Shown here piece after piece: positions 8,914-39,353 of a DNA stretch of 46,522 bases. The notes below the pieces were generated by a model. The model saw nothing but the letters and a program-made list of their open reading frames with translations. It did not search any database and was not told the origin of the DNA. Numbering within the stretch: position 1 is the stretch's first letter; each line of letters begins with the position of its first letter. The stretch is from Candidatus Heimdallarchaeota archaeon (GTDB lineage Archaea > Asgardarchaeota > Heimdallarchaeia > Heimdallarchaeales > Heimdallarchaeaceae), in NCBI GenBank assembly GCA_019057375.1, contig DXJF01000022.1, positions 1 to 46,522 of the forward strand, written 5' to 3'. The position numbers and the translations under genes were made by a program.

Positions 8914-10521
8914 ATGGAATTGCTATCAATGACTGTTGCTCTTCATAATTATTTGAAAGGAATAAACCTCGATGAATTCGTTGTCAATGTAAAGGACAGG
9001 AGTAAATTTGAAGAAATTCTTACCCATCTTGGGTTAGACTCTAACTTTTCACTAGAGAAGTTTGTTGAACATCTGTTGTATGAGAGTAAAATATTCCTTA
9101 ACAAAGAAAAACGAAAAGAAGCCTTGATTATATTAAAAGCTACTAAGCCCTTGCTTAATCTGGTTCCAAAGTATTTGAGCGCGTTCTTCTATCTCACTTT
9201 AACTGATTCATTTATTCTAGCTAATGATTATGAAGGAGCAACAAAATCTGTTAATCGTGCAAATTCTATAGCTGAAGAACTGAATGATCCTAGGCTTATA
9301 GTAAGAGTTCTAAATCTCATGTTTGTTATTAATAGAACTGTTTTGAAGGACAAAGCTGTAGAATTTTTACTTAAATCTAAGGAAATCTCTGAAAAGAATG
9401 AATTCTATGAAAATATAGTTTTTTGTGATGTTAATATTGGTTTGATGCACTTTTTCAAAAAAGAATACAGTAAAGCTGCTGAATATTGCTCATATGTAAT
9501 TGATCTCATTACGACAAAGAAATATCCTAATAATAAGTTGATTATGCCAGCTGATTGTTTTCTTCAGATCTTTTCTGAAAGCCCAGAACTTGTTGCTAAT
9601 CCTAAGAACCAAGATATGATTTTGAAAGGTGTCACTGTTGTACTTAGAACTATCAAACAATTCAAATCAGATTATGAAGCAACTCGAAGACTTTCTATAC
9701 TTGTAAGTTTTCTAAAACTTTCTGAAAACTTAATTGAACGCTCTCTGAAAGAAATCGATTTGTTTATTGAGAATCTTCCCAAGGATAAAAGATCTCTTTA
9801 TTATTATGGAATCGCAAATGGGATAGCCAATTTCAAAGATTATAAAGTGTCACTAGTTTATTTTGAGAAAGCAATAAGTCAGATGAAAAACCTGAAGGAT
9901 GAAGAACAAAGAAGAATAAAGAAAAACTATGCATATACTCTTTCTATCACCATGGAAACTACAATGATTTACGATTTGGAGACTTCACAACAGACATCTC
10001 AAAGGCTTAAAGGATTAAGAATTAAAACAAATGAAGATAATCTCGCTGGGAAAAAAGACAAGCAAATTAATTATAGAAATTCAGTAAGTGATTCAGATGC
10101 GGTTTTTGGTGTAAAAAGAGATTTTTTGGAGAAAAAATTGCTCAACAGTATTAAGAATCATTATACACAAAGAGAAATAATAACTGGTTTTTCATATCAG
10201 AACAGTAGAAACGACATCTTGAACCATTTGGAGATGTTTGTAATAAATGCACTTAACCAGAATGATGAATTATTATCACTTCTCTTAGTGGGTACAACAA
10301 TTAGTGAAAAAGACTCAAAGAAGAAGAAGCGTACTTTTACAGGATACCAAATTCTAGGTCATAGGGTGCCTAAGTCAATATTAGATACAAAACACTTCGA
10401 AGACTTTGATATCAAATTCCTTTATGATTTAGTTACTGCTCCCCAAAAGTTTAAACAAATTGAGATTATAACTCCACACGAATCTTTAGAAACAGACTAT
10501 AAGAGAATTTTAAGCAAATAG
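8914..10521 (+). CDS. TPR-like helical repeat protein with unknown C-terminal domain
   Basis: 535 aa. TPR-like motifs such as 'NIGLMHFFKKEYSKAAEY' and 'LVYFEKAI'. Confidence 0.55.
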   Translation: MELLSMTVALHNYLKGINLDEFVVNVKDRSKFEEILTHLGLDSNFSLEKFVEHLLYESKIFLNKEKRKEALIILKATKPLLNLVPKYLSAFFYLTLTDSFILANDYEGATKSVNRANSIAEELNDPRLIVRVLNLMFVINRTVLKDKAVEFLLKSKEISEKNEFYENIVFCDVNIGLMHFFKKEYSKAAEYCSYVIDLITTKKYPNNKLIMPADCFLQIFSESPELVANPKNQDMILKGVTVVLRTIKQFKSDYEATRRLSILVSFLKLSENLIERSLKEIDLFIENLPKDKRSLYYYGIANGIANFKDYKVSLVYFEKAISQMKNLKDEEQRRIKKNYAYTLSITMETTMIYDLETSQQTSQRLKGLRIKTNEDNLAGKKDKQINYRNSVSDSDAVFGVKRDFLEKKLLNSIKNHYTQREIITGFSYQNSRNDILNHLEMFVINALNQNDELLSLLLVGTTISEKDSKKKKRTFTGYQILGHRVPKSILDTKHFEDFDIKFLYDLVTAPQKFKQIEIITPHESLETDYKRILSK

Positions 10522-10524
10522 AAC

Positions 10525-11322
10525 TCAATTGAACATTGTGAGTATCGTTTGTTTAAGTTGATTTATTTTTTCAGCTGAATATTGAAAGTTCTTCATTTCA
10601 TCTATAGCTTTGAACATGTAGTCCTTTGCTTTTGATTTCTTGTCCAATTCAAAAAATACTCTCCCAATTAGAATAGATAATAAGATGACTTGATCTTTAT
10701 CTTTTTGTTTTTTGAAATGATTCAGAGCATCTTGAAAAGCTTTCAAAGATTCTTCATATTTGGATTGGGATACTAATAAGTGACCCAAATCATTCTCTAC
10801 TTCAGCTTTTTTATCAAGTGCTTTAATTTTCTTATAAATCTCAATCGCCTTTTTGTATGCATTAACAGCTCTTGCAGGATAAGCAGAATATTCAACTAAA
10901 TCTGTTTGGTAAGTAAGAGCAAGTTCTTTCCATGAATCACCAAGTTTTTCCAAATTGCTCAAATTAGTAAAAGTATCTGTGGCTTGAGCTAAGTATTGTT
11001 TACTTTTTTTGAATTCCCCTTCTTCTCGGTAAATCACTCCTAGAAGAAGAGCGCATTCGCCTATTTGGGGTGAAAGATTTAATTCTTGGAATCTGCTTAT
11101 AGCTAATGAATAAAATTGACGAGCTTGGGAAAACTGGTTTATGTTGTAGTAAGCAGTACCTAATAATAATAATGTCTCAGCGGATTGCCCTTTGTTACCA
11201 ATTGAGGAAAAAATCTCTTGGGCATAAATGAGGTCCTTAATGCAGTTTTGAAAGTTTCCCTCTTGGAAATCTTTTTGTCCACGAACAAAGAAATAATTAG
11301 CATTAGTTTCTTGATCTTTCAT
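10525..11322 (-). CDS. Tetratricopeptide repeat protein
   Basis: Repeated 'LGTAYYNINQFSQARQFY', 'LGVIYREEGEFKKSKQYL' and 'LGHLLVSQSKYEESLKAF' units. Confidence 0.85.
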   Translation of the reverse strand: MKDQETNANYFFVRGQKDFQEGNFQNCIKDLIYAQEIFSSIGNKGQSAETLLLLGTAYYNINQFSQARQFYSLAISRFQELNLSPQIGECALLLGVIYREEGEFKKSKQYLAQATDTFTNLSNLEKLGDSWKELALTYQTDLVEYSAYPARAVNAYKKAIEIYKKIKALDKKAEVENDLGHLLVSQSKYEESLKAFQDALNHFKKQKDKDQVILLSILIGRVFFELDKKSKAKDYMFKAIDEMKNFQYSAEKINQLKQTILTMFN

Positions 11323-11439
11323 ACTTGGAACCCCTAGCCATTACAATAATTCTTCCTAAACTAGTACATCCTTTTTTTAATATATACTTTCTAATAGTTT
11401 TATCCGCCAATAAGAATAAAGGAAAAAAAGTGACAAAAA

Positions 11440-13197
11440 CTAACTTATGAAGAACAATGGCTTTTCTTCATAGCTTTTATTTACATTATCCCAGTCAATT
11501 TCTCGAGCAAGTGTTCTCTTCCCTGAGTCGATTATATTATTGACTCTTCTAGCATGTAAAATTTCGTTTGCTTTCCTAATAAGTGATCTTCTTTGATAAT
11601 TTGGTTCAGGTCTTGCTACTGTCAAAGCAGTTTTTGCTTGTTTTTCAGCTAAGATACCAATTACCACCTTATCTCCTTTGACGAATTCTACTAATCGAAA
11701 AACTTCAGGATTCAACTTATTTTCAAAGAAAGCTTCTTCGGGAATTATTGATAGTATCTTCTCAATATAACTAACTGATATAAACCTTTTAGCTATTTCT
11801 ACGATACCAATCACTGGATCTAAGAATTCAGTAGGAAACCGAATGGGTGATTCAGAATAGAAAACTGTTGGCTGGGTTTGTTTCTGTTTGGATTCAATCA
11901 CACCACTAATAATAAAATTATCTTCTCGGAAGGAGTCGTAAACTTCTTCGCCTATACCAATACCAGATACACTGGTCATTATCATTTCATCCAGAATCAG
12001 TCGAGACCAAGCATCAATTGGTATCGTTTTCTTAATTGTTGATTTCCTAATTTTAGGCTCCTTTTTCTTCTTGAAAACAGAGAAAAGTTTTCTAAAGAAA
12101 CCTGTAGGCTCAGGTTGTTCTTCAATTTCAATTTTTTCTTCTGTAATTTCTCTTTCTTCCTTAACTCGTCTAAAAACATCCATTTGAGGCAAATTTTTCT
12201 TGAATTTTTCAAATGCACTAATATCTTCTAATTTTAGTTGTAGAAGAGCTTCAACTTCCTTGAGATTAATATCATCTAGAGGACTTAGTAATCCTATCCA
12301 CCCTTCAGCTGTTGCAGTCCTGGCATGAACAACAAAAAAATTGATTTCTGAGGTTATTGATTCTAGCTTATTTGTAAATCTGATATACTTTAATATATGA
12401 GGATAATCTCCACTCAACAGCTTTGTAGTACTCTTGAATTCCTTGGTAACTTGTGCAGTCTTAAGCACTGGTATAAGGGATTCAAATTTTTCACCTTTGG
12501 TTTCACCATCTTGCCATCTGAAGTAATAAAACATTGTTGATTCCTTGAAATAAGGGATTGGAACAGCTGGATTTGGTTCTCCTTCTGTTTCATTAGCAAA
12601 ATGTTTGGCAATAATCTGCGAGATAATTCCTGTTTGTTGTGATTCCATAATATTTCGAAGGTTCTTCCATTTTTCCAAGGATTTTGAAAAAATAGATTGG
12701 CACAAAGCAGTTTCAATCAGGAATGCAGCCCACCATGGTGGAATGTATTGCATTTTTTCTCCTACAAATACCAAAAGATGTCTGGTATAATAATCTGCAA
12801 CTAATGCAGCCGCTATATGTTTGGCAACTCCTCGATCAAGAAGATAGTAGAATCTCTTTCTCAATATAGACGCAACTTTGAAAGAAAATGCTACAAGATG
12901 TGTTAATTCATACCATGCTTCTTCCTTAGGTAATGACAATTTTTTCCAAAAATCAATAATTTCTTGTCTTCTTACAGAATCCTCTAGTTCAAACTTCACT
13001 TCAGAAGACATTATGATATAATCAGCAGTGTAGAGAGCAGAAAGAACTAGATTATTTGAGTTATCATAATCTGTTTGAAATTCCCCTATCAAGTCTTTAC
13101 TCATTACTTTATAACGTTCAAATAGAGTTTGAAGTTGATGAACCCTTTTAGTTTCTTGATATTCTTTCTCTAAAAATTGGTAAACAGCATCCTTCAT
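11440..13197 (-). CDS. Hypothetical protein, 585 aa
   Basis: Long, clean ORF with no recognisable motif. It is divergently transcribed from the TnpB-like locus. Confidence 0.75.
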   Translation of the reverse strand: MKDAVYQFLEKEYQETKRVHQLQTLFERYKVMSKDLIGEFQTDYDNSNNLVLSALYTADYIIMSSEVKFELEDSVRRQEIIDFWKKLSLPKEEAWYELTHLVAFSFKVASILRKRFYYLLDRGVAKHIAAALVADYYTRHLLVFVGEKMQYIPPWWAAFLIETALCQSIFSKSLEKWKNLRNIMESQQTGIISQIIAKHFANETEGEPNPAVPIPYFKESTMFYYFRWQDGETKGEKFESLIPVLKTAQVTKEFKSTTKLLSGDYPHILKYIRFTNKLESITSEINFFVVHARTATAEGWIGLLSPLDDINLKEVEALLQLKLEDISAFEKFKKNLPQMDVFRRVKEEREITEEKIEIEEQPEPTGFFRKLFSVFKKKKEPKIRKSTIKKTIPIDAWSRLILDEMIMTSVSGIGIGEEVYDSFREDNFIISGVIESKQKQTQPTVFYSESPIRFPTEFLDPVIGIVEIAKRFISVSYIEKILSIIPEEAFFENKLNPEVFRLVEFVKGDKVVIGILAEKQAKTALTVARPEPNYQRRSLIRKANEILHARRVNNIIDSGKRTLAREIDWDNVNKSYEEKPLFFIS

Positions 13198-13237
13198 TAC
13201 AAATATGTTTACTAAGGATAAATTAAATCTATCGCAA

Positions 13238-13252
13238 GAGAAAGTTTATTTT
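13238..13252 (+). promoter_or_regulatory. BRE/TATA-like promoter candidate for the upstream structured RNA
   Basis: Purine-rich GAGAAAG followed by TTTATTTT, about 25 nt before the predicted 5' stem at 13273. Confidence 0.4.
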
Positions 13253-13272
13253 TGTAAAAAAGAAATTAATTT

Positions 13273-13345
13273 TGCGTGAATTGTGATGAGGGTTTTACCG
13301 TTGGAGTTCTTAACCGTGAAATAAAAGGCACCTCTGAATTCCGCA
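13273..13345 (+). ncRNA. C/D-box-like (K-turn) structured RNA, copy 1
   Basis: Box C GTGATGA 13283-13289 and box D CTGA 13334-13337. Terminal stem TGCG(T)GAAT/ATTCCGCA with a 3-nt bulge before the GA gives K-turn geometry. Internal hairpin spans 13293-13321. Confidence 0.65.
13327..13339 (+). repeat. GGCACCTCTGAAT direct repeat, copy 1 (copy 2 at 15434-15446)
   Basis: Exact 13-bp match. TGATGAG, TTGGAG and TGAAA are also shared in the same order upstream of each copy. Confidence 0.9.
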
Positions 13346-13393
13346 TTAATTTCTTAAATAAGAGATATTTGTCTGAATAACAAATTTGCCGAG

Positions 13394-13401
13394 TTTATAA
13401 A
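13394..13401 (+). promoter_or_regulatory. TATA box for the TnpB-like gene (leaderless transcript likely)
   Basis: TTTATAAA lies 26 nt before GTG 13427. Confidence 0.45.
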
Positions 13402-13426
13402 TCAAACTTCTGATTATATAGTAGAT

Positions 13427-15388
13427 GTGACTTTGACCTCTCAAAACTCCATAAAAGATGAAAATATTGTAATCAGAACCTATCGAATGGGTGTTAGGTT
13501 TCATGGTTCAAAAGAAACTCGTCGATTATTAGAGATAGAAGCTAATTCAAGAATTGCAAGATTACAAACTGAACAAGAGGACTTTATATTTGATGACAAT
13601 GCTCATGAGATTGCTTTATCAATAGTTAACCAGAAATTAGATATACCACCTAAATTTGCTCCACGAGAAATCCAAAAATCAACAAAAAAATATTCTAACA
13701 TTGCTGATAGTGCATATTATTGGCTCTACTTGGCATCAAAAAGTACTGCAATAAGGGAAGAGAAGGTTAAGAAAATGCTTTCTTTATTCAAGATTTGGGG
13801 GTATCAGGCTGTAGAGTGGATACTTTTTGGTAGATCTCCTAGAGTTGAAAAAAGATTATATCTAGATTGGCAAGTTCGTCGTATATTTGTTATTAACTTA
13901 CTCCACAGCACTCGTAGAAAATTTGATAAGATTTGCCCAAAGGAGCTGAAACTTTCCTCAAAAATCCCAACAATATCCGAAAAAGAACTAGAACAAAACA
14001 TTAAACGATGTTCTACATCAATAACTAAAGAAATTGTCTCCTCCCAACAACAAATAACAGATAAGTCTTATGCTTTTATGGACAAATTGCATCTACTTGA
14101 GCAGAATTCGAAAATAACAGCTTCACTTCTTCATAAGTGGATAACTGAAGTAACAAGTTCACGTTGGAAGAGTTTAAAGAATTGTGCTAATTCTCTTTCT
14201 GAAGTACTTGGAAAACCAAAGGGCAGTCTGTTTTCAGCAATGCGAACAATTGTAGCCTTTGCACTTTATCCTAAAATAGGACAAACTGTATCAAAAGTAA
14301 TTAGTCAAGTACTCCTAGAAGAAATAGTTCCAAAACCATTTGAAAGAAAAAGAAAAGGAAAATTACCTATCATCCTACTCATGAAAAAAAACTATGTTGT
14401 TGTACGACCTGGAAATTCAGCAGAAATGACAAATTTAGCAAAAATACATGGTCGATTTCAGATAGGATTCACTCAGCAAGGCAAAAAAAGAATAAATGGA
14501 ACTTTGATTTTCCCAAAACGAGTTCAAACAATGTTGAAACAAGGAGCTAAAATCAAAGTACTTCAAATTAGAAGTGGATGTGCTCCAAATTACAAACTTA
14601 ATGTTTCAGTCACTTTAGAAGGTAGTCCATGGGTTTTCTTCGGATTAACAAACGTAAAATCGTTAGGTGAAAAAATAAAGTGTCCTTCTAATTTAGTAAT
14701 TGGTTTAGATATCAATCGCCTTGGAAAATACACTGTAGCGTTATCTAATGAAGTACCATTACCAAAGATAATTCTAAAGTTAATAAACAGATATCATCTA
14801 TTAACTAGAAAGATAATACCAGATTTGAATAGAAGTCTTAAATTTAGTGGAAAAAGAAAGGATAATTTAAGTTATACAAAACTCAAAGGTGAATTATCTC
14901 GAGTTTATAGGAGACGAAGTAATATATTAAGAGAAATAAAACATCAAATAACCTGTTTTATTGCTTCAACTATTGTTAGAAGTAATTGCAAAGCTTTGTG
15001 TGTAGAGGATTTGGAATTTAATCCGATTGGTTTGAAAGGAGCATTAGCTAAGATTTTCTTTTCATTTCCAGATGAAATTAACATATACGAGAAAGCAATA
15101 TCGTTGGCTTCATACTTTCTGGGTTACAAAGTTCAATTAATACCAGTTAATCCAAGCAATACTAGCAAGTATCACTATAACTGTGGAGGTAGAATAGAAA
15201 GAACTAATAGATTCTACGATAATGCCAAATGTGAGAAATGTAATGAAATGGTTAATACGCATATAAATGCTGCACGAAATATAAAGGATAAAGGAATAAA
15301 AAAGCTATCAGAATTACAGTCCCTTTCTGCATACGAGGGCAAAGACTTCAGTCTTCAAGCAAGTCAACTTACATATAGTAATGATTGA
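13427..15388 (+). CDS. tnpB: Large TnpB/Cas12-like RuvC protein
   Basis: RuvC-I VIGLDIN, RuvC-II LCVEDL, 'VNPSNTSKYHYNCG', zinc ribbon CEKC and RuvC-III-like NTHINAARNI. At 653 aa it has an expanded N-terminal helical region. Confidence 0.85.
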   Translation: MTLTSQNSIKDENIVIRTYRMGVRFHGSKETRRLLEIEANSRIARLQTEQEDFIFDDNAHEIALSIVNQKLDIPPKFAPREIQKSTKKYSNIADSAYYWLYLASKSTAIREEKVKKMLSLFKIWGYQAVEWILFGRSPRVEKRLYLDWQVRRIFVINLLHSTRRKFDKICPKELKLSSKIPTISEKELEQNIKRCSTSITKEIVSSQQQITDKSYAFMDKLHLLEQNSKITASLLHKWITEVTSSRWKSLKNCANSLSEVLGKPKGSLFSAMRTIVAFALYPKIGQTVSKVISQVLLEEIVPKPFERKRKGKLPIILLMKKNYVVVRPGNSAEMTNLAKIHGRFQIGFTQQGKKRINGTLIFPKRVQTMLKQGAKIKVLQIRSGCAPNYKLNVSVTLEGSPWVFFGLTNVKSLGEKIKCPSNLVIGLDINRLGKYTVALSNEVPLPKIILKLINRYHLLTRKIIPDLNRSLKFSGKRKDNLSYTKLKGELSRVYRRRSNILREIKHQITCFIASTIVRSNCKALCVEDLEFNPIGLKGALAKIFFSFPDEINIYEKAISLASYFLGYKVQLIPVNPSNTSKYHYNCGGRIERTNRFYDNAKCEKCNEMVNTHINAARNIKDKGIKKLSELQSLSAYEGKDFSLQASQLTYSND

Positions 15389-15452
15389 TGAGTTTCATAG
15401 TATGCATTGGAGCGTAAAAGCTATGAAAATAACGGCACCTCTGAATCTGCGC
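15319..15452 (+). ncRNA. omegaRNA-like 3' RNA containing C/D-box-like copy 2
   Basis: Hairpins lie in the CDS tail (CCCT/AGGG 15321-15339; AAGAC-TTCA-GTCTT 15342-15355). Box C TTGATGA 15385-15391 overlaps the stop codon, followed by an 8-bp stem TTTCATAG/CTATGAAA and box D CTGA 15441-15444. Confidence 0.6.
15434..15446 (+). repeat. GGCACCTCTGAAT direct repeat, copy 2
   Basis: Exact match to 13327-13339. Confidence 0.9.
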
Positions 15453-15457
15453 TTTAT

Positions 15458-16852
15458 TTATATTTCCAGCATTACTTTTTTATTTTGTTTATTCCAAAAG
15501 ATTCTGTTACGATAACTTGGCTTTGCTTTTATTGGCATTTTTTCTATTTTATTAGTCCACTCTTTGACTTTCTTTATGCTTTTAGTAAAAGCATCATTAG
15601 ACACATTGGTCATTAACTTTAATTCATCTGCAGCTGGTTTTCCTGAAACTGCCTTAATTATATCGTCAGTTTTCTTGATAAATTCTTTCTCCAGCTTGTT
15701 TCTACCATCTTCAAAAACATTTAGTCTATGTTGATAATCTTGACTAACTAGTCTTTGGAATTTCTCATTAAACCACCAGAAACTATCTGGATCGTAAAAA
15801 GCATCTGATATTTTTAGCTTCTTCTTTAAACTAGGTTTTGGAAGGAAAATGGGTTTAAAAGTACTGATACATGGAGCTGATGATCCTGTTACCCAATGAA
15901 TTTGAATATCTTTTAGAATGTGAGATACGAGGGATCCTGTTGTTTGATCTGGAATAATTATTCCTGTTGCATGATGGCATGGACTATTAGCTTTTGCTTT
16001 AGCTGGAGCCCATTTTTCCTCTTTCTCTGGTGTGACATTGTGATTTCTAAGAACGTCCATAACATCCTTGGGCGTGATTTTTCCTTTATTTTTTAACATT
16101 AGTGTAGTGGTACACTGTTGTCTCTTAAATCCCTTAGTGAAATAATGTGACCTTTGTGAAGATTCTTTTACTGCATGATAAATTCTGAATTTTGGAACAA
16201 AATCCTTTGCAAAATTAAATTCATCTTTTGATTTACTATATCCTTTTTCGATTGCATGTTTTATGAGATTGTGATGAATTAGATCATATTTGGCTCCAAT
16301 TGAAAAAGTGTTAGAAATTGTTCTAATATCTCTAACCTTCTCTGCAATCCAGTATTTATCAGCTGTTTCTAGAACCCACGCTTCTTTTTGGTCTGCAATT
16401 ATGAAAGAATTATGATAATCTCTACCTACAACACCGTAAGAACACTGTCCGCCTTGTCCATAATCCCCCAGAAGGGAAATTATGATTTCAAGAGCTGTCT
16501 TCGCAGTTTTAGCTCTTTCTAGCGTAAGTCTTATTAGATCCATACCTAGTAATCCAACATCTCTTATTGGTTCTTTACTCCAAACAGCTTCATTTCCTAT
16601 AGCTAAACCATGTTCATTTGCTCCCATCTCACATCCAAACATCCAGAAAGGTTTCATAAGGAGAACATCATATGTTTGTTCGACTTGAGGAATTGAAATA
16701 TGTGTACATTTCACTTTAGAATTTTTTGCATGCTTTTTTCCTGGAATGTATTCTATATTATGGGCTTCATTTGCAACTCGATTAGAGTTCTTACCTAGTA
16801 TAACACTCCCATCCTTTGTTGAATTTCCAACAGCCACAACAGTATCACACAT
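15458..16852 (-). CDS. Peptidase C69 / secernin-family Ntn-hydrolase (dipeptidase)
   Basis: N-terminal MCDT with Cys nucleophile, 'GKNSNR', 'MGANEHGLAIGNE' and 'GLLGMDLIRLTLERA'. Confidence 0.9.
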   Translation of the reverse strand: MCDTVVAVGNSTKDGSVILGKNSNRVANEAHNIEYIPGKKHAKNSKVKCTHISIPQVEQTYDVLLMKPFWMFGCEMGANEHGLAIGNEAVWSKEPIRDVGLLGMDLIRLTLERAKTAKTALEIIISLLGDYGQGGQCSYGVVGRDYHNSFIIADQKEAWVLETADKYWIAEKVRDIRTISNTFSIGAKYDLIHHNLIKHAIEKGYSKSKDEFNFAKDFVPKFRIYHAVKESSQRSHYFTKGFKRQQCTTTLMLKNKGKITPKDVMDVLRNHNVTPEKEEKWAPAKAKANSPCHHATGIIIPDQTTGSLVSHILKDIQIHWVTGSSAPCISTFKPIFLPKPSLKKKLKISDAFYDPDSFWWFNEKFQRLVSQDYQHRLNVFEDGRNKLEKEFIKKTDDIIKAVSGKPAADELKLMTNVSNDAFTKSIKKVKEWTNKIEKMPIKAKPSYRNRIFWNKQNKKVMLEI

Positions 16853-16900
16853 TGTAAGTATCATTAAAACTAGTTAATAAAAAAACTTTACACCGATTCT

Positions 16901-18238
16901 TTAGAACCGATGAATTAAATTGGCAATAGTTTTCATTCCAATAACAAAATCTTCTATGAATATATTTTCATTGGGAGCATGAGCGTTTGAATTTGCATGA
17001 CCACAACCAATGGATATGCAGGGAACTCCTTCGAACAAGTACATTGGACCTGATCCTCCAACCAAAGGCCAAATTACTGGTTCATGATTCTCAATATCTT
17101 TAATTGTATCTACAACTTGTTTGGCAAAAGAATCTTTGATAGATGTTTGAGCTGCAGGATAACCATCCCAACTAGTAATTTCAATATGTTGAAAACCATT
17201 ATCATCCCAGAATTTACGAATCTTCTCAACCAAATCCTTTGCATCTTGTCCAGGAACAAGTCTAAAGTCAACTTTAGCAAAAGCTTCGTTTGGAGTGACA
17301 GTTTTTCCACCTGGACCCTGATATCCACTCCATAAACCACAAATGTTGCATGTGGGCTCTAAGAAATATTTTTTCTTAATGTCCAAACCAGTAAGATTCA
17401 AACGAAAGCTATCTACACCAAAATTTTCTTTGAATAAGTCTTCCTTCAAATTAAAATCTTCTATAGTTTTCATATCTTCAGGTGAAGGTTCAGGTATATT
17501 TTCGTAGAAACCAGGGACAAGAATTCTATCATTTCTGTCTTTCAGTGAAGCTAAAGCCCAACTCATTTCATAAGCTGCATTGTTAACAAATTGTGTATAT
17601 CCACTATGGACATCTCTACCTATAGTATTAGTTTTCAAATGAAGATAAAGGATACCTTTGACACCCAAATACACTTCTTGAATACCGTCACCATCTCTTC
17701 CACCAAATTCCCAAATACAACCATCTGCATCAGTAATGAATTCTCTATTGCTTTTCACAAATTCTTCTAAATTGGGAGAACCAACTTCCTCTTCTCCTTC
17801 AATAACAAACTTGACGTTAACTGGAAGTTTCCCAAAAACATCAACATACGCTTTTATTGCTTGAAGTCTGCAGATTATTTCTCCTTTGTTATCTGAAACA
17901 CCTCTAGCAAAAATCTTCCCGTCTCTGATAGTTGGCTCGAAAGGAGGAGAATCCCATAAGCCTATGGGATCTTCAGGTTGAACATCATAATGATCGTAGA
18001 ATAGAAGAGTTTTGTTTGCTCCAACATTCATTTCTGCACAGAAAACAGGATTACCAGAGGTTTCAGCAAGAAAGTATGTAAATCCAGCTTCTTCAAAATG
18101 CTTAGAGAGGAACTCAATTGCTTCTGGTCCACCTGTTTCTTTAGCAGCTATACTAGGAATCTTAAGTAGTTCGCACAAAAGGTCGACTGAAGAATCTTTA
18201 TTTTTTTCTATTATTTGATAAACATCTTTTAATGTCAT
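16901..18238 (-). CDS. M20-family metallopeptidase/dipeptidase
   Basis: YDHYDVQP, RGVSDNKG, EGEEEVGS and AHAPNE. Confidence 0.92.
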   Translation of the reverse strand: MTLKDVYQIIEKNKDSSVDLLCELLKIPSIAAKETGGPEAIEFLSKHFEEAGFTYFLAETSGNPVFCAEMNVGANKTLLFYDHYDVQPEDPIGLWDSPPFEPTIRDGKIFARGVSDNKGEIICRLQAIKAYVDVFGKLPVNVKFVIEGEEEVGSPNLEEFVKSNREFITDADGCIWEFGGRDGDGIQEVYLGVKGILYLHLKTNTIGRDVHSGYTQFVNNAAYEMSWALASLKDRNDRILVPGFYENIPEPSPEDMKTIEDFNLKEDLFKENFGVDSFRLNLTGLDIKKKYFLEPTCNICGLWSGYQGPGGKTVTPNEAFAKVDFRLVPGQDAKDLVEKIRKFWDDNGFQHIEITSWDGYPAAQTSIKDSFAKQVVDTIKDIENHEPVIWPLVGGSGPMYLFEGVPCISIGCGHANSNAHAPNENIFIEDFVIGMKTIANLIHRF

Positions 18239-18313
18239 ATCTCTCTTGTTTTAGTAGAAAATTTAATCTTTAAGACTTTCTCAATAACTTAATATCAGAA
18301 AAAAAAGAAGAAT

Positions 18314-19285
18314 CTAAAGTTTGAGTAATTCCTCATAGATTCCTTTAATTAATCCAAAAATAAGATTTAAATCAGCTGATTTAGTAAGACCAAATTCTAT
18401 GTTTTTCTTTTTGATCTTCAAATAATCCATTGATTCATGGATTTTAGATAATTTTCCTTCTAACATTAATACTTTCTTGAAGAAATTCCAATCAGCTGAA
18501 GTATTACTGTTAAAAAAATATTCTTCCTTATCACTTGTCTTATCTTTATGGAGAGAAAGCGTAAAGGGTTGTTTTCTCTTTAATATGCTATTAAAACTTA
18601 AGATTTGTTCCTTATCCAATTGGACAATAATGCCCATAATGAAATTGTAATCGCTTTTATCATGAAAATTGAATGAGAAGTTTGGTCCAGAATCATCCAA
18701 GTAAAATTGTAAATTTTCTATTTCTAGTAGTAATAGATTCCTTCTTAGTTTTTCCATTATCATTAGTTCTTCTTCTTCAATAATCTGATTCATACTAACT
18801 TTTTTATCTTTAGAACCACCAATTATTGATTCTTTCATCTTATAATCCCAAAGTTCTTTATCTCCATGAATTGCAAAAGAATATTTGTCTTTAGAACTAA
18901 TTTTTCCATAAAAAATACCCTTAGCTACTCGTTGCCCATGAAGCCATTCTTGTTGTGAAACAACTCTCGGCTTTCCTGGAACTCTATCTAATCTTGCTTG
19001 TCTAGACATTTTTCGATCTGTAGTATCAGGTATATCTTTTCTAAATGCAGCTCGTTCTTCTATGGATTTTTCTTGGTCTTTTCCATGAATAGTACGTCGT
19101 GTAAGATACAACAATATAGGTAAGGTTATAATCGTAATTGGTATCGCAATCAGAAAATGTTGAGGGTTATTTAATGTAAAAACAAATATCATAACTGCTA
19201 TAATAAAAAGTAGAATAGCAATGATTTCTAGATATCTCTTTTTAATTAATTCTGAAAATTGAAATTCTCCACTCTTCATTGTCAT
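18314..19285 (-). CDS. Membrane-anchored hypothetical protein (paralog of 19340-20611, no RING)
   Basis: N-terminal TM hairpin 'KKRYLEIIAILLFII...' is homologous to the neighbour's 'KKKYLEISVVILFAI...'. Both share 'FYGK' and 'F(S/T)L(T/S)LHK'. Confidence 0.75.
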   Translation of the reverse strand: MTMKSGEFQFSELIKKRYLEIIAILLFIIAVMIFVFTLNNPQHFLIAIPITIITLPILLYLTRRTIHGKDQEKSIEERAAFRKDIPDTTDRKMSRQARLDRVPGKPRVVSQQEWLHGQRVAKGIFYGKISSKDKYSFAIHGDKELWDYKMKESIIGGSKDKKVSMNQIIEEEELMIMEKLRRNLLLLEIENLQFYLDDSGPNFSFNFHDKSDYNFIMGIIVQLDKEQILSFNSILKRKQPFTLSLHKDKTSDKEEYFFNSNTSADWNFFKKVLMLEGKLSKIHESMDYLKIKKKNIEFGLTKSADLNLIFGLIKGIYEELLKL

Positions 19286-19339
19286 AGGTACAACAGATTC
19301 TTCTTTATATAGCCTTGCATTTATATCTGAAGGAATGTG

Positions 19340-20611
19340 TTAATATGATTCTTTAAGTTGATCTAACCATCTTTTCTGAAGTTTCTGGCAGTTAGGACAT
19401 TTTTGATGGTTATCCAACCACATAATCATATGTAGTTTGTGAGCGTATACACCACAGCATGGAGTTTGAACTATATCTTCTTTTTCAGATGGATATAGCT
19501 CCAATCTACACACCTTACAGCGTGGTCTGCTTGTACCGCATGATGAGCACTCTATATCATCTAAACTTAGTTTTTCACCACAGTTAAGGCATTCCAATTC
19601 TTCAACTTCAATAATCCCGATATCGATTCTTGAGAGTTCTGAGGACAATTCTTTAACTAGACTTAGGAAATCTTTCAAATCCTTAATGTTAGAGATATTC
19701 CCTGTTACGTATTTCTTATCGATCATTAAATGTTCTACACTTTCGTAAACTGTGTCTAACTTCTGTTTAAATTCATCTTTTGCTAGAATCCCTTCTTTAA
19801 CCACTGAATAACTGCTAATAATAGAATATTTGTTTTCTTCCCCAACTTCATTCTTATGGAGAGTCAATGAAAAATGTTGATATTTTTTGAGAATCCCTTC
19901 TAGTATAATTTCTTTATCAGAATATAAGTGTAAAACAATTCCTGTGATAAAACTATATTTACTTTTTTTTGAAAACATAAATGCTAAACTAGGTTTAACT
20001 TCATCATAATACAATTGTATATTTGTTCCACCCATATCAACGATATCTTTTCTGAGATTCTCAAGAATTTGCAAAGAGTATACATCAAATACCTCATTTA
20101 AACCTGGTTTTTCACCTGCTGTTCGCTTGACTTCGGCAGATTGTACTAGGAATTCAAAAATTGGGCTAACAATAGGATATCCAGCAGAAAATGGCCCTCC
20201 TACCTTTCCATAGAATTTCTTCCTTCTTACTTCATCGTCATACATTATTTCTGCTGAGCTAATCATCACACCCACTGGGCGTCCATATTCAGCTCCTGCA
20301 CCTTTATCTACAAATCCGGGCATTGTATATCTTGCTGTATCTTGATGAGCACTTCTTGGAATTAGATTTTCTTGTCCTACTCTCTGGAGAGCACGAATTT
20401 CGCTTATCGCTTTTCTGTCAGCTGTTCTTCTAGTAAGAATAATAATTGTAGGAAAGACAACAACTAGAACTGCTTCAACAATTAGAAAACTATATACATC
20501 ACTTAAAGAGAAAAACAATATAACAGAAGCAATTGCAAAAAGTATAACCACAGATATTTCCAAATACTTTTTCTTAAAAAACACTTTAGTCTTCTTTGCC
20601 CCACTCTTCAT
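19340..20611 (-). CDS. Membrane-anchored protein with C-terminal Zn-ribbon and RING-like domain
   Basis: TM hairpin at the N-terminus. C-terminal CLNC..CSSC ribbon, then CKVC..PCC-x4-H-x2-H-x3-W..CPNC. Confidence 0.78.
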   Translation of the reverse strand: MKSGAKKTKVFFKKKYLEISVVILFAIASVILFFSLSDVYSFLIVEAVLVVVFPTIIILTRRTADRKAISEIRALQRVGQENLIPRSAHQDTARYTMPGFVDKGAGAEYGRPVGVMISSAEIMYDDEVRRKKFYGKVGGPFSAGYPIVSPIFEFLVQSAEVKRTAGEKPGLNEVFDVYSLQILENLRKDIVDMGGTNIQLYYDEVKPSLAFMFSKKSKYSFITGIVLHLYSDKEIILEGILKKYQHFSLTLHKNEVGEENKYSIISSYSVVKEGILAKDEFKQKLDTVYESVEHLMIDKKYVTGNISNIKDLKDFLSLVKELSSELSRIDIGIIEVEELECLNCGEKLSLDDIECSSCGTSRPRCKVCRLELYPSEKEDIVQTPCCGVYAHKLHMIMWLDNHQKCPNCQKLQKRWLDQLKESY

Positions 20612-34362: not shown

Positions 34363-36411
34363 ATGAGTGATCCACTTCATCCCCCAGTTGCTAAAAAAGA
34401 GCTGAAAATAACTGAAATTCATGGACAGAAAATTGAAGACGTTTATTTCTGGCTCAGATTTAAAGAAAATCAAGAAGTTATTGATTATTTAACAGTTGAA
34501 AATGATTATACTAAAGAGAAAACTAAGCATCTTGATACTTTCACAGATGAACTGTTCCATGAGATGAAAAATAGAATTAAGGAAGATGACGAAAGTGTTC
34601 CGTACAAATTCAAAGACTATTATTACTATGATAGAGATGAGAAAGGGAAGGAGTACAAAATCTATTGTCGTAAGCATTCAAGTTTAGAAAATGACGAAGA
34701 AATACTCCTTGATATAAATGAATTAGCCAAAGATTATGAGTACTACAAGCTTAGAACATTAAAAATAAGCCCAAACCAGAAAATGCTAGCTTATTCCATA
34801 GATAACACAGGTTATGAGAAATTCTTTATCCAGATTAAAAATCTAGAAACAGAAGAAACTACCACTACTGGAATTGAAAACATAGGTTGGAATTTTGAAT
34901 GGGCGGATGATAATACTATTTACTATAATGTACGAGATGATGCACAGAGACCCTATGCACTAAAAAGACACATATTTGGTTCTTCATCAAAAGATGATCC
35001 AGTAATCTTTGAGGAGAAGGATATAGAGAGACGTGTTTCTGTTTGGAAAAGCAAGGACAATAAATATCTCTTTATGAATTCAGAATCAACAATAAGTTCT
35101 GAAATAAGATATCTGGATTTATCTGACCCTCTGGGTGATTTCCAAATATTCTTTCCAAGAGAAGAGAAACATGAATATCATCTTACACACAAAGATGGAT
35201 ATTTCTACATTGTTACAAATTCAGATGATTCAACCAATTTTAAATTAATGAGATCAAACGTTAAAGATTTTAAAATGGAGAACTGGGAAGAAATTATTCC
35301 TCATAATAAAGATGTACGTCTCATGTGGACAGAGGCTTTTGAGGATTTTCTAATTATATATAAAAGAGAAGCAGGTTTAGCTAAAGTAGACATTTTTTAT
35401 GAAAGGAATAGCGAAAATAATCACACAATAGCGATGCCTGAAACAGTGTATGGTGTTTGGGATGGTGATAATTTTGAATATTCTTCTGATTATCTTAGAT
35501 TAGTTTATACTTCACTAATAACTCCTAAATCAGTATATGATTACAATGTAAATGAAAGAAAATTAATATTAAAGAAACAAGACGAAATTAAGGATTATAA
35601 AAAAGAAGATTTTGTTACAGAAAGAAAATACATTACAGCACGTGATGGAGTTAAAGTTCCTATTTCAATTGTTCATAAGAAGAACATTAGTACTCCTGCT
35701 CCAACATTTCTCTATGGATATGGCTCTTATGGTGTATCAGTTGATCCTTATTTCTCTCCAACAGCTGTTAGTTTAATTGAGCGAGGAGTGATATATGTAA
35801 TCGCTCATGTCAGAGGAAGTGGATTACTAGGTAGGCCATGGTATGAAGACGGTAAATTACTGAAAAAGAAAAACACCTTCAATGATTTCATAGATACTGC
35901 AGAACATCTGATAGAAAACAATGTTACCACCAAAAAACAACTAGTTATTGCTGGTGCTAGTGCAGGGGGATTATTAGTTGGGGGTGCAGTTACAATGCGT
36001 CCTGATTTGTTCCACTTCGTTGTTGCTAGAGTACCTTTTGTAGATGTTGTAAATACAATGCTGGATGCAAGTATTCCACTAACAGCTCAAGAATGGAAAG
36101 AATGGGGGGACCCAAGAGATAAGGAATACTTTGAATACATGCTTTCCTATTCTCCATATGACCAAGTAAAACCAATCGATTATCCACATTTACTTGTAAC
36201 TTCTGGGTTAAATGATCCTCGAGTTGCTTTTTGGGAACCAGCTAAATTTGTTGCTAAGCTTAGAACACTTAAGACTGATAACAACGATTTACTACTCAAG
36301 ACAAATATGGGAGCTGGGCATCATGGAGCTTCTGGACGATATGAATCTATGAAAGAAACTGCATTTATTTATGCTAATGTTCTTGATAAGGTTGGGTTAG
36401 TTCAAAAATAA
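34363..36411 (+). CDS. ptrB: Oligopeptidase B (S9A prolyl oligopeptidase family)
   Basis: Beta-propeller N-terminus, YGYGSYG, GASAGGLL (Ser nucleophile), GLNDPRV and AGHHG. Confidence 0.94.
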   Translation: MSDPLHPPVAKKELKITEIHGQKIEDVYFWLRFKENQEVIDYLTVENDYTKEKTKHLDTFTDELFHEMKNRIKEDDESVPYKFKDYYYYDRDEKGKEYKIYCRKHSSLENDEEILLDINELAKDYEYYKLRTLKISPNQKMLAYSIDNTGYEKFFIQIKNLETEETTTTGIENIGWNFEWADDNTIYYNVRDDAQRPYALKRHIFGSSSKDDPVIFEEKDIERRVSVWKSKDNKYLFMNSESTISSEIRYLDLSDPLGDFQIFFPREEKHEYHLTHKDGYFYIVTNSDDSTNFKLMRSNVKDFKMENWEEIIPHNKDVRLMWTEAFEDFLIIYKREAGLAKVDIFYERNSENNHTIAMPETVYGVWDGDNFEYSSDYLRLVYTSLITPKSVYDYNVNERKLILKKQDEIKDYKKEDFVTERKYITARDGVKVPISIVHKKNISTPAPTFLYGYGSYGVSVDPYFSPTAVSLIERGVIYVIAHVRGSGLLGRPWYEDGKLLKKKNTFNDFIDTAEHLIENNVTTKKQLVIAGASAGGLLVGGAVTMRPDLFHFVVARVPFVDVVNTMLDASIPLTAQEWKEWGDPRDKEYFEYMLSYSPYDQVKPIDYPHLLVTSGLNDPRVAFWEPAKFVAKLRTLKTDNNDLLLKTNMGAGHHGASGRYESMKETAFIYANVLDKVGLVQK

Positions 36412-36427
36412 TTCTTATATTTTTCTA

Positions 36428-37372
36428 TTAATCGCTTAGAGCATATTCTGTAGTGGTATATGATTCTCTTATACTCACTTTACCATTAGTGTACTGTGTT
36501 GCAAATTGACCACAATTGGTACCAATATCATTCTCTTCCCATTCACCAATACTGATGGCAGCACTAAAACCTAGTTTTCTGAACTCTTTAACTAATGGGA
36601 AGATTTCTGTATTTTCTACAGTAATCCCACTCTGGAGTTTATTATCCATAGCTTTGCTAGTAGGGTTAATTGGGGTCAACTTGATCCAATACTTTTCTGG
36701 ATCAAAAATATGAGCGACTATTTCGGGATTGATCTTAGAATCTTCAGCCACTGCAAAGTTGAGTGTTATTTTCCTATCTCCCTTTGTGTACCATTTTTCA
36801 CCAAATTTTGCAATTTCCCCCAGATCCCAGATATTTGTAGTCATCCATTTTTCTCTTTCTTCTTGATCTGTGGAATGAATTGAGAATTGTAGTTGGAAAT
36901 TACCATTAGGATAAAAGTGATTCTTCAGTTCAATTAGTTCATCAAGGAAATCTGCACCTTTGTTTGGAGCAATGGTACTTAGACAAGGCATTAATCCTGG
37001 AGCTTCATATTTTTCTGGGAGTAATTTTAAAACTTCTAGAACGTTTTTATTTAATGAAGGTTCTCCCATTCGAGCAAATTGAATTTTGAATTTAGGAATT
37101 GGTATTTTTCCATTCGGGAAACGTTTCTTGATCATGAAGTCAATCTCTTCAAGCATTCCTTCTGTAGAAATTTTACCGTGATAGTACTCCCCAGCATCGC
37201 ACATTAAACAACCAATAGGACACCCATACATGGTTGAAATAACCAGAACCCATTTTTCTTCTCTAGGAATAGGAGGTTGTAGACTTTCAACAAATTCTAC
37301 GATTTTACCTTCTTGTTTAGCTATGTAAAGAATAGCTAAATCTTCTTTACCATATTTCCCGAATATTTCCAT
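36428..37372 (-). CDS. RlmN/Cfr-like radical SAM protein
   Basis: CPIGCLMC (CxxxCxxC), MGEP, SIH and C-terminal CGQ. Likely start is ATG 37372. Confidence 0.85.
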   Translation of the reverse strand: MEIFGKYGKEDLAILYIAKQEGKIVEFVESLQPPIPREEKWVLVISTMYGCPIGCLMCDAGEYYHGKISTEGMLEEIDFMIKKRFPNGKIPIPKFKIQFARMGEPSLNKNVLEVLKLLPEKYEAPGLMPCLSTIAPNKGADFLDELIELKNHFYPNGNFQLQFSIHSTDQEEREKWMTTNIWDLGEIAKFGEKWYTKGDRKITLNFAVAEDSKINPEIVAHIFDPEKYWIKLTPINPTSKAMDNKLQSGITVENTEIFPLVKEFRKLGFSAAISIGEWEENDIGTNCGQFATQYTNGKVSIRESYTTTEYALSD

Positions 37373-39345: not shown

Positions 39346-39353
39346 ATAGTTTC

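What the first reader, a model, noticed from the sequence alone, without database searches (positions are those of the whole stretch)
13273..15452. Cas12-sized TnpB-like protein bracketed by two C/D-box-like structured RNAs: candidate new RNA-guided system
Seen in sequence: both flanks share the ordered blocks TGATGAG..TTGGAG..TGAAA..GGCACCTCTGAAT in the same orientation. Each begins with a box C (TGATGA) and ends with a box D (CTGA) about 50 nt later, and each has an internal hairpin whose stem differs in sequence but keeps pairing (TTTTAC/GTGAAA versus TTTCATAG/CTATGAAA). There is no TnpA, Cas1/2 or CRISPR array. Established knowledge: TnpB uses an omegaRNA from its 3' end; C/D motifs form K-turns bound by L7Ae; TIGR-Tas and IS110 link C/D-like RNAs to Nop-domain proteins, and no Nop domain is recognisable here. 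Inference, three models: (A) an omegaRNA plus a stand-alone second copy carrying a different guide, both K-turn based and possibly using host L7Ae; (B) two C/D methylation-guide sRNAs hitch-hiking with or co-opted by the element; (C) IS200/IS605-type left and right end hairpins.
Basis: partly seen in the sequence, partly recalled or inferred. Interest (0 to 1): 0.92.

Follow-up and report, generated by a model that had tools for sequence, protein, structure and literature searches.

The report
TnpB element splits C/D sRNA gene
A transposon-type RNA-guided enzyme gene of an Asgard archaeon sits inside a small ribosome-modifying RNA gene, with a spare copy of that gene that its own guide does not match; this explains the two look-alike RNAs and suggests a natural cut-and-replace way of spreading.

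Summary
The two look-alike flanks are real, but they are not a pair of K-turn guide RNAs.

- **Copy 1 (13274-13344)** is a complete archaeal C/D box sRNA gene. It is conserved in the genus and in a second genus. In all 11 related loci examined, no TnpB-like gene lies within 1.5 kb.
- **Copy 2 is a chimera.** Its "box C" and 5' hairpin arm (15386-15406) are the conserved 3' end of an omegaRNA-like scaffold shared by a Heimdall-group family of ~640-aa TnpB-like proteins. This genome holds ten diverged paralogs.
- **From 15407 onward**, copy 2 is the 3' two-thirds of the native sRNA gene, 46/46 identical to a related genome.
- **Empty sites** show that 13278-15406 (variant sRNA gene, promoter, 653-aa ORF, scaffold) is a strain-specific insertion.
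- **The 20 nt in guide position** match the uninterrupted allele of a relative 20/20, where CCG precedes them. They match the locus's own copy 1 at only 6/20 and have no other target in this genome.

Best reading, with function inferred: a TnpB-type selfish element aimed at the sRNA gene of element-free relatives, linked to a replacement copy its guide does not match. Earlier notes of this scan describe the same layout at tRNA loci on other contigs of this genome. I checked the tRNA-Val locus myself.

The parts
13241..13254 (+). A/T-rich promoter-like box (BRE/TATA type) of the C/D sRNA gene, in native left-flank DNA
   Evidence: Conserved upstream of every orthologous sRNA (alignment). It lies about 20 nt upstream of the RNA's first paired base. 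Its role as a promoter is inferred.
13274..13344 (+). Copy 1: complete C/D box sRNA gene. Terminal stem 13274-13281 with 13338-13344; box C 13283-13289; D' guide 13290-13301; D' 13302-13305; short hairpin 13306-13314; C' 13316-13322; D guide 13323-13333; box D 13334-13337
   Evidence: Related sequence at E<1e-6 in 23 of 24 other genomes of the genus and in both genomes of a second genus. No TnpB-like gene within 1.5 kb in 11/11 loci. Terminal stem and hairpin covary: 88.8% of cells paired, 4 pairs with changes on both sides, 0/500 shuffles reach the score. Full-length sub-threshold Rfam match to a C/D snoRNA family, SNORD58, E=0.0049. The D' guide has a 10-nt perfect complement in the genome's own 16S rRNA.
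13278..15406 (+). Strain-specific inserted unit, 2129 nt: variant sRNA allele, spacer, promoter, TnpB-like ORF and omegaRNA scaffold
   Evidence: Empty sites in relatives. The left flank aligns up to 13351 and the right flank from 15407 onto one uninterrupted sRNA locus; L093 is 92.6% and 94.4% identical. The left edge is placed where the window departs from the allele of its closest relatives.
13394..13401 (+). TATA-like box of the TnpB-like gene. The GTG start 25 nt downstream suggests a leaderless mRNA
   Evidence: A 'cgagtttaaata'-type box is conserved upstream of all ten paralogs of this genome and of related loci. Its function is inferred.
13427..15388 (+). 653-aa TnpB/Cas12f-like ORF with RuvC D428, E527, H612 and an H/C-C-C zinc finger
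   Evidence: Pfam Cas12f1-like TNB domain, 1.9e-7. AF2 model pLDDT 84, pTM 0.70. Foldseek top hits are Cas12f, with TnpB and other Cas12 further down the list; best E 3.5e-9, probability 1.0. Conserved residues from the 25-sequence alignment. H612 aligns with the RuvC-III Asp of solved Cas12f.
15321..15406 (+). omegaRNA-like scaffold (minimum extent). Hairpin 15321-15324 with 15336-15339. Its loop 15328-15334 pairs with the 3' terminal 15400-15406 to form a pseudoknot.
   Evidence: 33-sequence family alignment: 96% of cells paired, 5 of 7 pseudoknot pairs show changes on both sides, 0/500 shuffles reach the score, and slid controls collapse. The window's own terminal pair is the compensatory U-A where most relatives have C-G.
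15407..15426 (+). Predicted guide segment (first 20 nt after the scaffold)
   Evidence: 20/20 identical to the uninterrupted sRNA allele of L090 and 18/20 to L093 and L089. Only 6/20 to the locus's own copy 1. No other match with 3 or fewer mismatches in the genome. Across the family, sequence after the scaffold end differs from locus to locus.
15407..15452 (+). Remnant of the native sRNA gene: D' 15408-15411, hairpin, C' 15423-15429, D guide 15430-15440, box D 15441-15444, 3' stem strand 15445-15452. A T-rich tract follows from 15453
   Evidence: 46/46 identical to L090 and continuous with the native right flank carrying the peptidase C69 gene.

Best explanation
**Shown: what is there.** The ORF encodes a member of a small, very divergent TnpB/Cas12f-like family. 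The family was found in Heimdall-group Asgard archaea, with a few records labelled Thorarchaeota.
- The last ~90 nt of the gene plus 18 nt downstream encode an omegaRNA-like scaffold. Its 3' terminal 7 nt close a pseudoknot.
- The gene, together with a complete variant C/D box sRNA gene on its left (copy 1), is a 2.1-kb insertion into the single-copy C/D sRNA gene of this lineage.
- The insertion point lies between the D' guide and the D' box, directly after CCG.
- The native gene lost its box C and D' guide. Its 3' two-thirds now follow the scaffold, so its first ~20 nt occupy the guide position. That junction is copy 2.

**Inferred: how it works.**
- The protein-omegaRNA complex recognises the uninterrupted sRNA allele of element-free relatives, which offers a perfect 20-nt match next to CCG, and cuts it.
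- Repair from an element-bearing chromosome copies in the whole unit. This is homing, as with free-standing homing endonucleases.
- Copy 1 mismatches the guide after 6 nt, so it should escape targeting. It could keep the 16S-directed methylation guide in service.
For: **Insertion and origin of the two copies**
- Empty sites with the same flanking genes occur in 11 related genomes.
- Bases 15407-15452 are 46/46 identical to the native allele of L090. The guide 20-mer matches it 20/20.
- Copy 1 is a different allele. Its 5' part is 26/27 to a distant species, L085, but 22/27 to the closest relatives. Its 3' part is 40/44 to L084 and about 34/44 to the others. Its terminal stem has co-varied.
- The flanks differ from empty-site relatives by only about 6-8%. 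The roughly one-third divergence between the two 3' parts therefore cannot have arisen in place after a local duplication.
- The genomes searched typically hold one copy of the sRNA gene. None of the 11 loci aligned holds a tandem pair.

**Guide and scaffold**
- The guide has no other target in this genome.
- The scaffold pseudoknot is supported by covariation.
- Sequence after the scaffold end differs among family loci.

**Protein**
- TnpB/Cas12f fold and motifs.

**Family behaviour**
- Copy number varies from 1 to 13 per genome. The family is absent from three sister genera. The only ortholog of this paralog above 48% identity is one metagenome contig.

**Same layout elsewhere in this genome, checked here**
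- Contig C65: the flank after the scaffold is an intron-less tRNA-Val(GAC) 5' part, identical to the intact tRNA of relatives, where CCG precedes it.
- A complete tRNA-Val that lacks that CCG and carries an intron interrupting the guide match lies upstream, inside the inserted DNA.

**Target-adjacent motif**
- Four verified empty sites have CCG, CCG, CTG and CTG immediately 5' of the guide-matching sequence.
Against: - No experiment or RNA data was available.
- The third RuvC residue is His, not Asp, so nuclease activity is unproven.
- No transposase sits beside any paralog, and how the first "spare copy + element" arrangement formed is unexplained.
- The window and its only occupied relative, L082, are 93.5% identical over 4 kb. 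They may record a single event, so repeated homing at this site is not shown.
- An allele the guide does not match (L084, 6/20) also occurs in an empty site. Copy-1-like sequence is therefore not exclusive to the element.
- Many family loci (54 of 64 tested) show no bracketing repeat. At least one, on C92, is a plain intergenic insertion.
Confidence: 0.6

Rival explanations
1. Ordinary transposition without homing. A trans-acting transposase, for example one of the genome's IS607-type serine recombinases, put the element into the sRNA gene. The intact copy 1 is an unrelated second copy, either a pre-existing duplicate or a separately acquired allele, that merely made the hit survivable. The guide match is then the trivial consequence of omegaRNA guides being flank DNA.
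For: - TnpB guides are flank-derived by construction (established knowledge).
- Four serine recombinase genes exist elsewhere in the genome.
- The C92 paralog is a clean intergenic insertion with no spare gene.
- In C47 the element sits in one of two tandem tRNA-like copies.
Against: - None of the 11 related loci aligned has a tandem sRNA pair.
- The native 5' part (box C and D' guide) is missing rather than left at the left junction, which simple insertion does not predict.
- Copy 1 is a foreign-type allele directly joined to the element, both in the window and in L082.
Confidence: 0.2
2. Domesticated, nuclease-impaired TnpB-like regulator (TldR- or Cas12m-like). It would use the sRNA-derived guide to bind DNA and tune expression of the sRNA locus or another target.
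For: - RuvC-III Asp is replaced by His family-wide.
- Several subfamily loci are syntenic across MAGs and sit next to the same tRNA-Cys gene.
- Paralogs are old, at 37-48% identity.
Against: - The guide has no target in this genome with 3 or fewer mismatches, and copy 1 matches at only 6/20.
- D428, E527 and the Thr-His pair are conserved rather than drifting, as expected for a working site.
- The locus is a recent strain-specific insertion, and family copy number is patchy.
Confidence: 0.07
3. One reading: a new RNA-guided system in which both flanking RNAs are K-turn (C/D-like) guide RNAs used by the protein, possibly with L7Ae.
For: - Both copies carry UGAUGA...CUGA in order.
- The host has the fibrillarin/Nop5 operon.
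- In copy 2 the D', C' and D boxes survive within the guide-proximal RNA, so L7Ae binding to the omegaRNA tail cannot be excluded.
Against: - Copy 1 is conserved without the protein in 11/11 related loci.
- Nine other paralogs and about 60 related loci share the scaffold but have no box D or second copy.
- Box C of copy 2 is not kept in the ortholog, and its spacing is wrong.
- Rfam models see copy 1 but not copy 2 as C/D-like.
Confidence: 0.03

Closest known systems
TnpB-omegaRNA (OMEGA) nucleases of IS200/IS605 and IS607 elements, e.g. ISDra2 TnpB, and miniature Cas12f
   Same: - WED, REC, split RuvC and zinc-finger fold (Foldseek).
- The scaffold RNA overlaps the gene's 3' end and closes with a pseudoknot next to the guide.
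- The guide is the DNA flanking the right end.
- A short motif lies 5' of the target.
- The logic matches guide-directed re-cutting of the element-free site, as reviewed in PMC13565253.
   Different: - About 250 aa larger, with an expanded helical lobe.
- Sequence similarity is confined to the C-terminal ~200 aa.
- Only 431 of 1.84 billion representative proteins reach E<=0.001 with the family profile.
- RuvC-III is His, not Asp.
- There is no adjacent TnpA.
- Here the element interrupts a functional RNA gene and is joined to a spare copy of it.
TnpB clades with RuvC-III Asp-to-His (RIIIr-4) and the Asgard-linked TnpB groups of Altae-Tran et al. 2023 (PMC10691335)
   Same: - A conserved His in place of the RuvC-III Asp, read there as a likely active, rearranged site.
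- Asgard-restricted TnpB lineages are reported there.
   Different: - RIIIr-4 is described as lacking the C4 zinc finger and as linked to an RHH/MazE-like protein. This family keeps an H/C-C-C finger and has no such neighbour.
- The Asgard groups in that paper are Cas1-associated. The only Cas1 in this genome is on another contig.
- Identity with any of their clades was not testable here.
Free-standing homing endonucleases ('intronless homing'), e.g. phage T4 SegB in the tRNA gene region (as summarised in PMC13565253)
   Same: The nuclease gene sits next to the gene it targets. The host's own copy is immune through sequence differences. Spread would be by break repair that co-converts flanking markers.
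   Different: Target recognition here would be by a guide RNA that is itself the remnant of the target gene. Activity and conversion are inferred, not shown.
Archaeal C/D box sRNAs (2'-O-methylation guides bound by L7Ae, Nop5 and fibrillarin)
   Same: Copy 1 has boxes C, D', C' and D, 12- and 11-nt guides, a covarying terminal stem and a 10-nt complement in the 16S 530-loop region. The host encodes Nop5 and fibrillarin.
   Different: Copy 2 is not such a gene. Its 5' third is replaced by element sequence.
Synthetic 'cleave and rescue' (ClvR) gene-drive designs (own knowledge, not checked in papers here)
   Same: An RNA-guided nuclease aimed at a needed gene is linked to a recoded copy that the guide does not match.
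   Different: This is a natural element in a prokaryote, and spread would need DNA exchange and recombination. Whether the sRNA is needed for fitness is unknown.

Membership tests
TnpB / Cas12f-type RNA-guided nuclease (OMEGA) | RuvC-like fold with WED, REC and zinc-finger (TNB) domains | tested here: met
   Pfam PF07282 at 1.9e-7, above its cut-off. Foldseek top hits are Cas12f, with TnpB and other Cas12 further down; best E 3.5e-9, probability 1.0, on a pLDDT-84 model.
TnpB / Cas12f-type RNA-guided nuclease (OMEGA) | Catalytic D-E-D triad in RuvC I, II and III | tested here: not met
   D428 and E527 are invariant, but the RuvC-III position is His612, nearly invariant and aligned to the Asp of solved Cas12f. 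This is a conserved D-E-H variant. Its activity is unknown.
TnpB / Cas12f-type RNA-guided nuclease (OMEGA) | Structured omegaRNA encoded at or overlapping the 3' end of the gene, followed by a variable guide | tested here: met
   A conserved scaffold with a covarying hairpin and pseudoknot ends at 15406. Sequence after it differs between loci.
TnpB / Cas12f-type RNA-guided nuclease (OMEGA) | Short target-adjacent motif 5' of the guide match | tested here: inconclusive
   CCG, CCG, CTG and CTG at four verified empty sites. Other loci, inferred from paralogous copies only, are less regular. No biochemical test was possible.
IS200/IS605 or IS607 insertion sequence | Adjacent Y1 or serine-recombinase TnpA, or defined ends matching those families | tested here: not met
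   No Y1 transposase in the 89%-complete genome. The four serine recombinases lie on contigs without family members. Left ends were defined only roughly.
Archaeal C/D box sRNA (copy 1) | Boxes C, D', C' and D with ~12-nt guide spacers and a terminal stem, conserved as a gene | tested here: met
   Alignment of 13 sequences, covariation, presence across the genus and a sub-threshold full-length Rfam C/D match.
Archaeal C/D box sRNA (copy 1) | Guide complementary to rRNA or tRNA | tested here: met
   The D' guide pairs with 10 consecutive nt, or 11 counting one G-U, of the genome's own 16S rRNA. No convincing target was found for the D guide.
Archaeal C/D box sRNA (copy 1) | Bound by L7Ae, Nop5 and fibrillarin; directs 2'-O-methylation | not testable with these tools
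   The host encodes Nop5 and fibrillarin. No RNA or modification data were available.
Archaeal C/D box sRNA (copy 2) | Conserved box C at 12 nt from D', its own promoter and a terminal stem | tested here: not met
   The spacing is 16 nt. Box C is TGACGAG in L082. The 5' third is family-wide scaffold sequence. No Rfam match. Only 3 bp of terminal stem remain.
Type V CRISPR-Cas | CRISPR array and adaptation genes at the locus | tested here: not met
   No repeats of array type in 9000-20000 and no tandem repeats in the window. The only Cas1 is on contig C8.

The most novel reading that the evidence does not exclude
This Asgard-specific D-E-H TnpB-like family may be a natural RNA-guided cleave-and-rescue or homing drive. 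It would specialise in small structural-RNA genes: a C/D sRNA here, tRNA-Val checked here, and tRNA-Leu and a 23S trailer according to earlier scan notes. Each element would cut the ordinary allele in other cells and travel with an allele its guide does not match, changed in loop, target-adjacent motif or by an intron. The family would then drive allele turnover of sRNA and tRNA genes, and could favour intron-bearing tRNA genes.
Probability: 0.4. Interest if true: 0.85.

Novelty: new variant of a known kind. Interest (0 to 1): 0.64.

Why it matters
**If the inferred mechanism holds**
- It would be a natural case of an RNA-guided nuclease linked to a guide-mismatched copy of its own target gene, the design principle of synthetic cleave-and-rescue drives. 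I found no description of this arrangement for TnpB in the papers I read (PMC10691335, PMC13565253).
- It would show that TnpB-type elements can colonise functional RNA genes without integrases or introns.
- It would give a testable link between mobile elements and allele or intron diversity of small RNA genes in the archaeal relatives of eukaryotes.

**Other products of this work**
- It defines a compact but very divergent D-E-H TnpB clade with a mapped scaffold, a predicted guide and a candidate C-Y-G target-adjacent motif. These can go straight to biochemical testing.
- It identifies a conserved Heimdall-group C/D sRNA aimed at the 16S 530 loop.

**If only the structural part holds**, this is an ordinary insertion of a known element type into an unusual target.

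Tried and rejected
- **Rfam at gathering thresholds:** nothing in the window.
- **Metagenome scans:** two exact-pattern scans, one for the scaffold-guide junction and one for the copy-1 3' end. The first found nothing. The second found only unrelated GC-rich chance hits.
- **Target of the D guide:** one 12/12 complement exists on contig C81. About 0.4 such hits are expected by chance, and I did not examine its context. A 6-nt complement beside the D' target in 16S is too short to count.
rejected as conserved structures.
- **Degenerate remnant of the native 5' part before the ORF promoter:** rejected. That T-rich 'ccgag' stretch is family-conserved promoter-proximal sequence.
- **Right edge of synteny with L082 as the end of a mobile unit:** rejected. 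L082 merely lacks the peptidase C69 gene and resumes at window 16841.
- **A shared 'TGAGGG' near the left ends of C92, C65 and this unit:** noted but treated as coincidence, because native sRNA alleles of other species carry it too.
- **Circle integration by a single crossover:** fits C65 but not this locus, where the 5' part of copy 1 is also foreign-type.
- **A single universal target-adjacent motif:** holds for four verified empty sites but not clearly for loci inferred from paralogous copies.
- **Column error:** my first count of sRNA stem pairs used wrong columns. It was redone.
Full report
**1. Observation**

The window is contig C117 of an 89%-complete, 3.47-Mb MAG. Public records of the related proteins and loci are labelled Heimdallarchaeota.

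The ORF 13427-15388 is flanked by two ~60-70-nt segments that share ordered blocks. These include an exact 13-mer found only at these two places in the assembly. The similarity exceeds chance:
- BLAST E=0.006 between the flanks.
- z=6.1 against shuffles.
- 23 nt at 87% identity.

**2. The protein and its family**

Pfam sees only the Cas12f1-like TNB zinc-finger domain, plus a weak OrfB_IS605 signal.

About 58 full-length homologs of ~640 aa come from Heimdall-group MAGs and a few labelled Thorarchaeota. A genome scan returned 109 loci, often several per MAG.
- This genome holds ten paralogs at 37-47% identity.
- The family is in 24/24 other genomes of the genus and 2/2 of a second genus.
- It was not found in four genomes of three sister genera. 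Copy number ranges from 1 to 13 per genome.

A family profile reaches only 431 of 1.84 billion representative proteins at E<=0.001. Against solved structures it reaches only the C-terminal parts of Cas12f and TnpB.

An AF2 model (pLDDT 84, pTM 0.70) matches Cas12f best, with TnpB and other Cas12 structures further down the list. The best hit has E 3.5e-9 and probability 1.0.

D428 (RuvC-I) and E527 (RuvC-II) are invariant. The RuvC-III motif reads Thr-His where Cas12f has Ala-Asp. A conserved Asp-to-His change is known in another TnpB clade and is read there as compatible with activity (PMC10691335).

**3. The omegaRNA-like scaffold**

All family loci share a conserved block that overlaps the last codons and ends in an invariant TTCAT motif followed by about 7 nt.

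In a 33-sequence alignment those terminal 7 nt pair with the loop of an upstream hairpin.
- 96% of cells are paired.
- 5 of 7 pairs show changes on both sides.
- 0/500 shuffles reach the score, and slid controls collapse.

In the window this is 15328-15334 with 15400-15406, and its outermost pair is a compensatory U-A. The scaffold therefore ends at 15406.

Beyond the scaffold end the sequence differs between loci, as expected for a guide or flank.

**4. Copy 1 is a real C/D box sRNA gene**

An 86-nt query around copy 1 finds a related sequence at E<1e-6 in 23 of 24 other genomes of the genus and in both genomes of a second genus. In 11 of 11 fetched loci no TnpB-like gene lies within 1.5 kb.

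The alignment shows:
- box C;
- an invariant 12-nt D' guide;
- a D' box of the form U-N-G-A;
- a short hairpin;
- a degenerate C' box;
- a conserved D guide;
- box D;
- an 8-bp terminal stem.

Stem and hairpin covary: 88.8% of cells paired, 4 pairs with changes on both sides, 0/500 shuffles.

Rfam's C/D snoRNA models match copy 1 full-length below threshold (SNORD58, E=0.0049). They do not match copy 2.

The D' guide has a 10-nt perfect complement in the genome's own 16S rRNA, in the 530-loop region. The match includes a position where this 16S reads A and, from memory, most archaea read U. The host has the Nop5-fibrillarin operon.

**5. Empty sites and the anatomy of the insertion**

Relatives keep the same flanking genes around a single sRNA gene.
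- The window's left flank aligns up to 13351 and its right flank from 15407. Both overlap on the one sRNA of L093, at 92.6% and 94.4% identity.
- From 15407 to 15452 the window is 46/46 identical to the allele of L090 and continuous with the native right flank.

Copy 1 is a different allele.
- Its 5' part is 26/27 identical to a distant species (L085) but 22/27 to the closest relatives.
- Its 3' part is closest to L084 (40/44).
- Its terminal stem has changed on both strands.

The window departs from the native allele at 13278. The inserted DNA is therefore 13278-15406, and the native box C and D' guide are gone.

The flanks differ from empty-site relatives by only 6-8%. The two 3' parts differ by about a third, so copy 1 cannot be an in-place duplicate of the native gene. 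It was imported.

The one other occupied site is metagenome contig L082, 93.5% identical over 4 kb.
- It has the same arrangement.
- Its remnant carries a different loop, of L091 type.
- Box C of its copy 2 is mutated.
- Its neighbouring peptidase gene is deleted.

**6. Guide logic**

The 20 nt after the scaffold match uninterrupted alleles as follows: L090 20/20, L093 and L089 18/20. In those alleles CCG precedes the match.

They match the locus's own copy 1 at only 6/20 and have no other match with 3 or fewer mismatches in the genome. An allele the guide does not match also exists in an empty site, L084.

**7. The same design at other paralogs**

*C65.* The flank after the scaffold is the intron-less 5' part of tRNA-Val(GAC). 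It is identical to the intact gene of relatives, where CCG precedes it.
- The native 3' part of the tRNA remains 4.3 kb to the left.
- The inserted DNA holds a 662-aa ORF, a complete tRNA-Val that lacks that CCG and carries an intron breaking the guide match, and the TnpB-like gene.
- One relative (G023) has the left part of this insert but no TnpB. Deletion between the direct repeats would produce this.

*C145.* This paralog abuts a tRNA-Val(CAC) 5' half, with CTG before the match in relatives. A full but different tRNA-Val lies upstream.

*C92.* This is a plain intergenic insertion after CTG.

*Closest subfamily.* The first ~20 nt after the scaffold resemble part of a complete tRNA gene within 50-250 nt. 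Examples are tRNA-Cys in eight MAGs and a tRNA-like gene in C47, L018 and L019.

Overall, 10 of 64 loci show significant similarity between upstream and downstream flanks.

Earlier notes of this scan report the same theme for tRNA-Val, tRNA-Leu and a 23S trailer on other contigs. I used them as leads only and re-derived the tRNA-Val case myself.

**8. Mechanism and limits**

*Shown.*
- The insertion.
- The identity of the two copies.
- The scaffold structure.
- The pattern of guide matches.

*Inferred.*
- That the D-E-H enzyme cuts or binds.
- That C-Y-G acts as a target-adjacent motif.
- That spread is by break repair (homing).
- That copy 1 rescues sRNA function.

No Y1 transposase is present. 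Four serine recombinases and one Cas1 lie elsewhere, so mobilisation in trans is not excluded.

No RNA data could be obtained, and no further copies were found in metagenomes.

**9. Verdict**

The headline reading of two K-turn guide RNAs for a new system is not supported.

What is there is a divergent TnpB-type element that has split a C/D box sRNA gene and is joined to a replacement copy its guide does not match. It is a new variant of a known kind, with an attractive but untested homing or cleave-and-rescue reading.

Noticed in passing
L084-L094 (sRNA orthologs), equivalent to window 13306-13322: The stretch between D' and C' of the conserved sRNA is the only hypervariable part among relatives, with compensatory stem changes. 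It is exactly the part the element's guide reads. One empty-site genome (L084) already carries an allele that matches the guide at only 6/20.
   Followed up: partly
G000 contig C65, about 36330-40656 (loci L101, L113): A 4.3-kb insert in tRNA-Val(GAC) holds a 662-aa ORF, an intron-bearing tRNA-Val and a family paralog. Relative G023 has the same left part and tRNA but no TnpB gene, as if it had been deleted between the ~145-nt direct repeats.
   Followed up: yes
L006, L012-L017, L067 (downstream of the family gene): In eight MAGs one subfamily sits 50-70 nt from a complete tRNA-Cys(GCA) gene. It carries a ~20-nt D-arm-like tRNA-Cys fragment in guide position. The fragment and the neighbouring tRNA do not co-vary.
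   Followed up: partly
L044 and L060: The 20 nt in guide position recur 20/20 and 19/20 about 500-600 nt downstream, next to a 131-138-nt segment that is 82-86% identical to sequence upstream of the element. This looks like an insertion into one of two tandem paralogous coding regions.
   Followed up: no
L082:4085-4209 versus window 16841-16958: The only other occupied site lacks the whole peptidase C69 gene. The deletion starts right after the sRNA remnant's T-tract.
   Followed up: partly
proteins P0083, P0105, P0113 and others: The family profile also hits much longer proteins (1200-1800 aa), some with several matched stretches. They could be fusions or tandem copies of the TnpB-like module.
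   Followed up: no
window 11440-13197 (-) and 8914-10521 (+): Two large ORFs (585 and 535 aa) next to the locus have no Pfam match. The 585-aa gene is conserved and syntenic in all relatives examined.
   Followed up: no
L009 and L005, downstream of the scaffold end: The guide-position sequence recurs at 16-17/20 some 120-185 nt downstream, in a non-tRNA context that also contains UGAUGA. This may be another small RNA gene used as a target.
   Followed up: no
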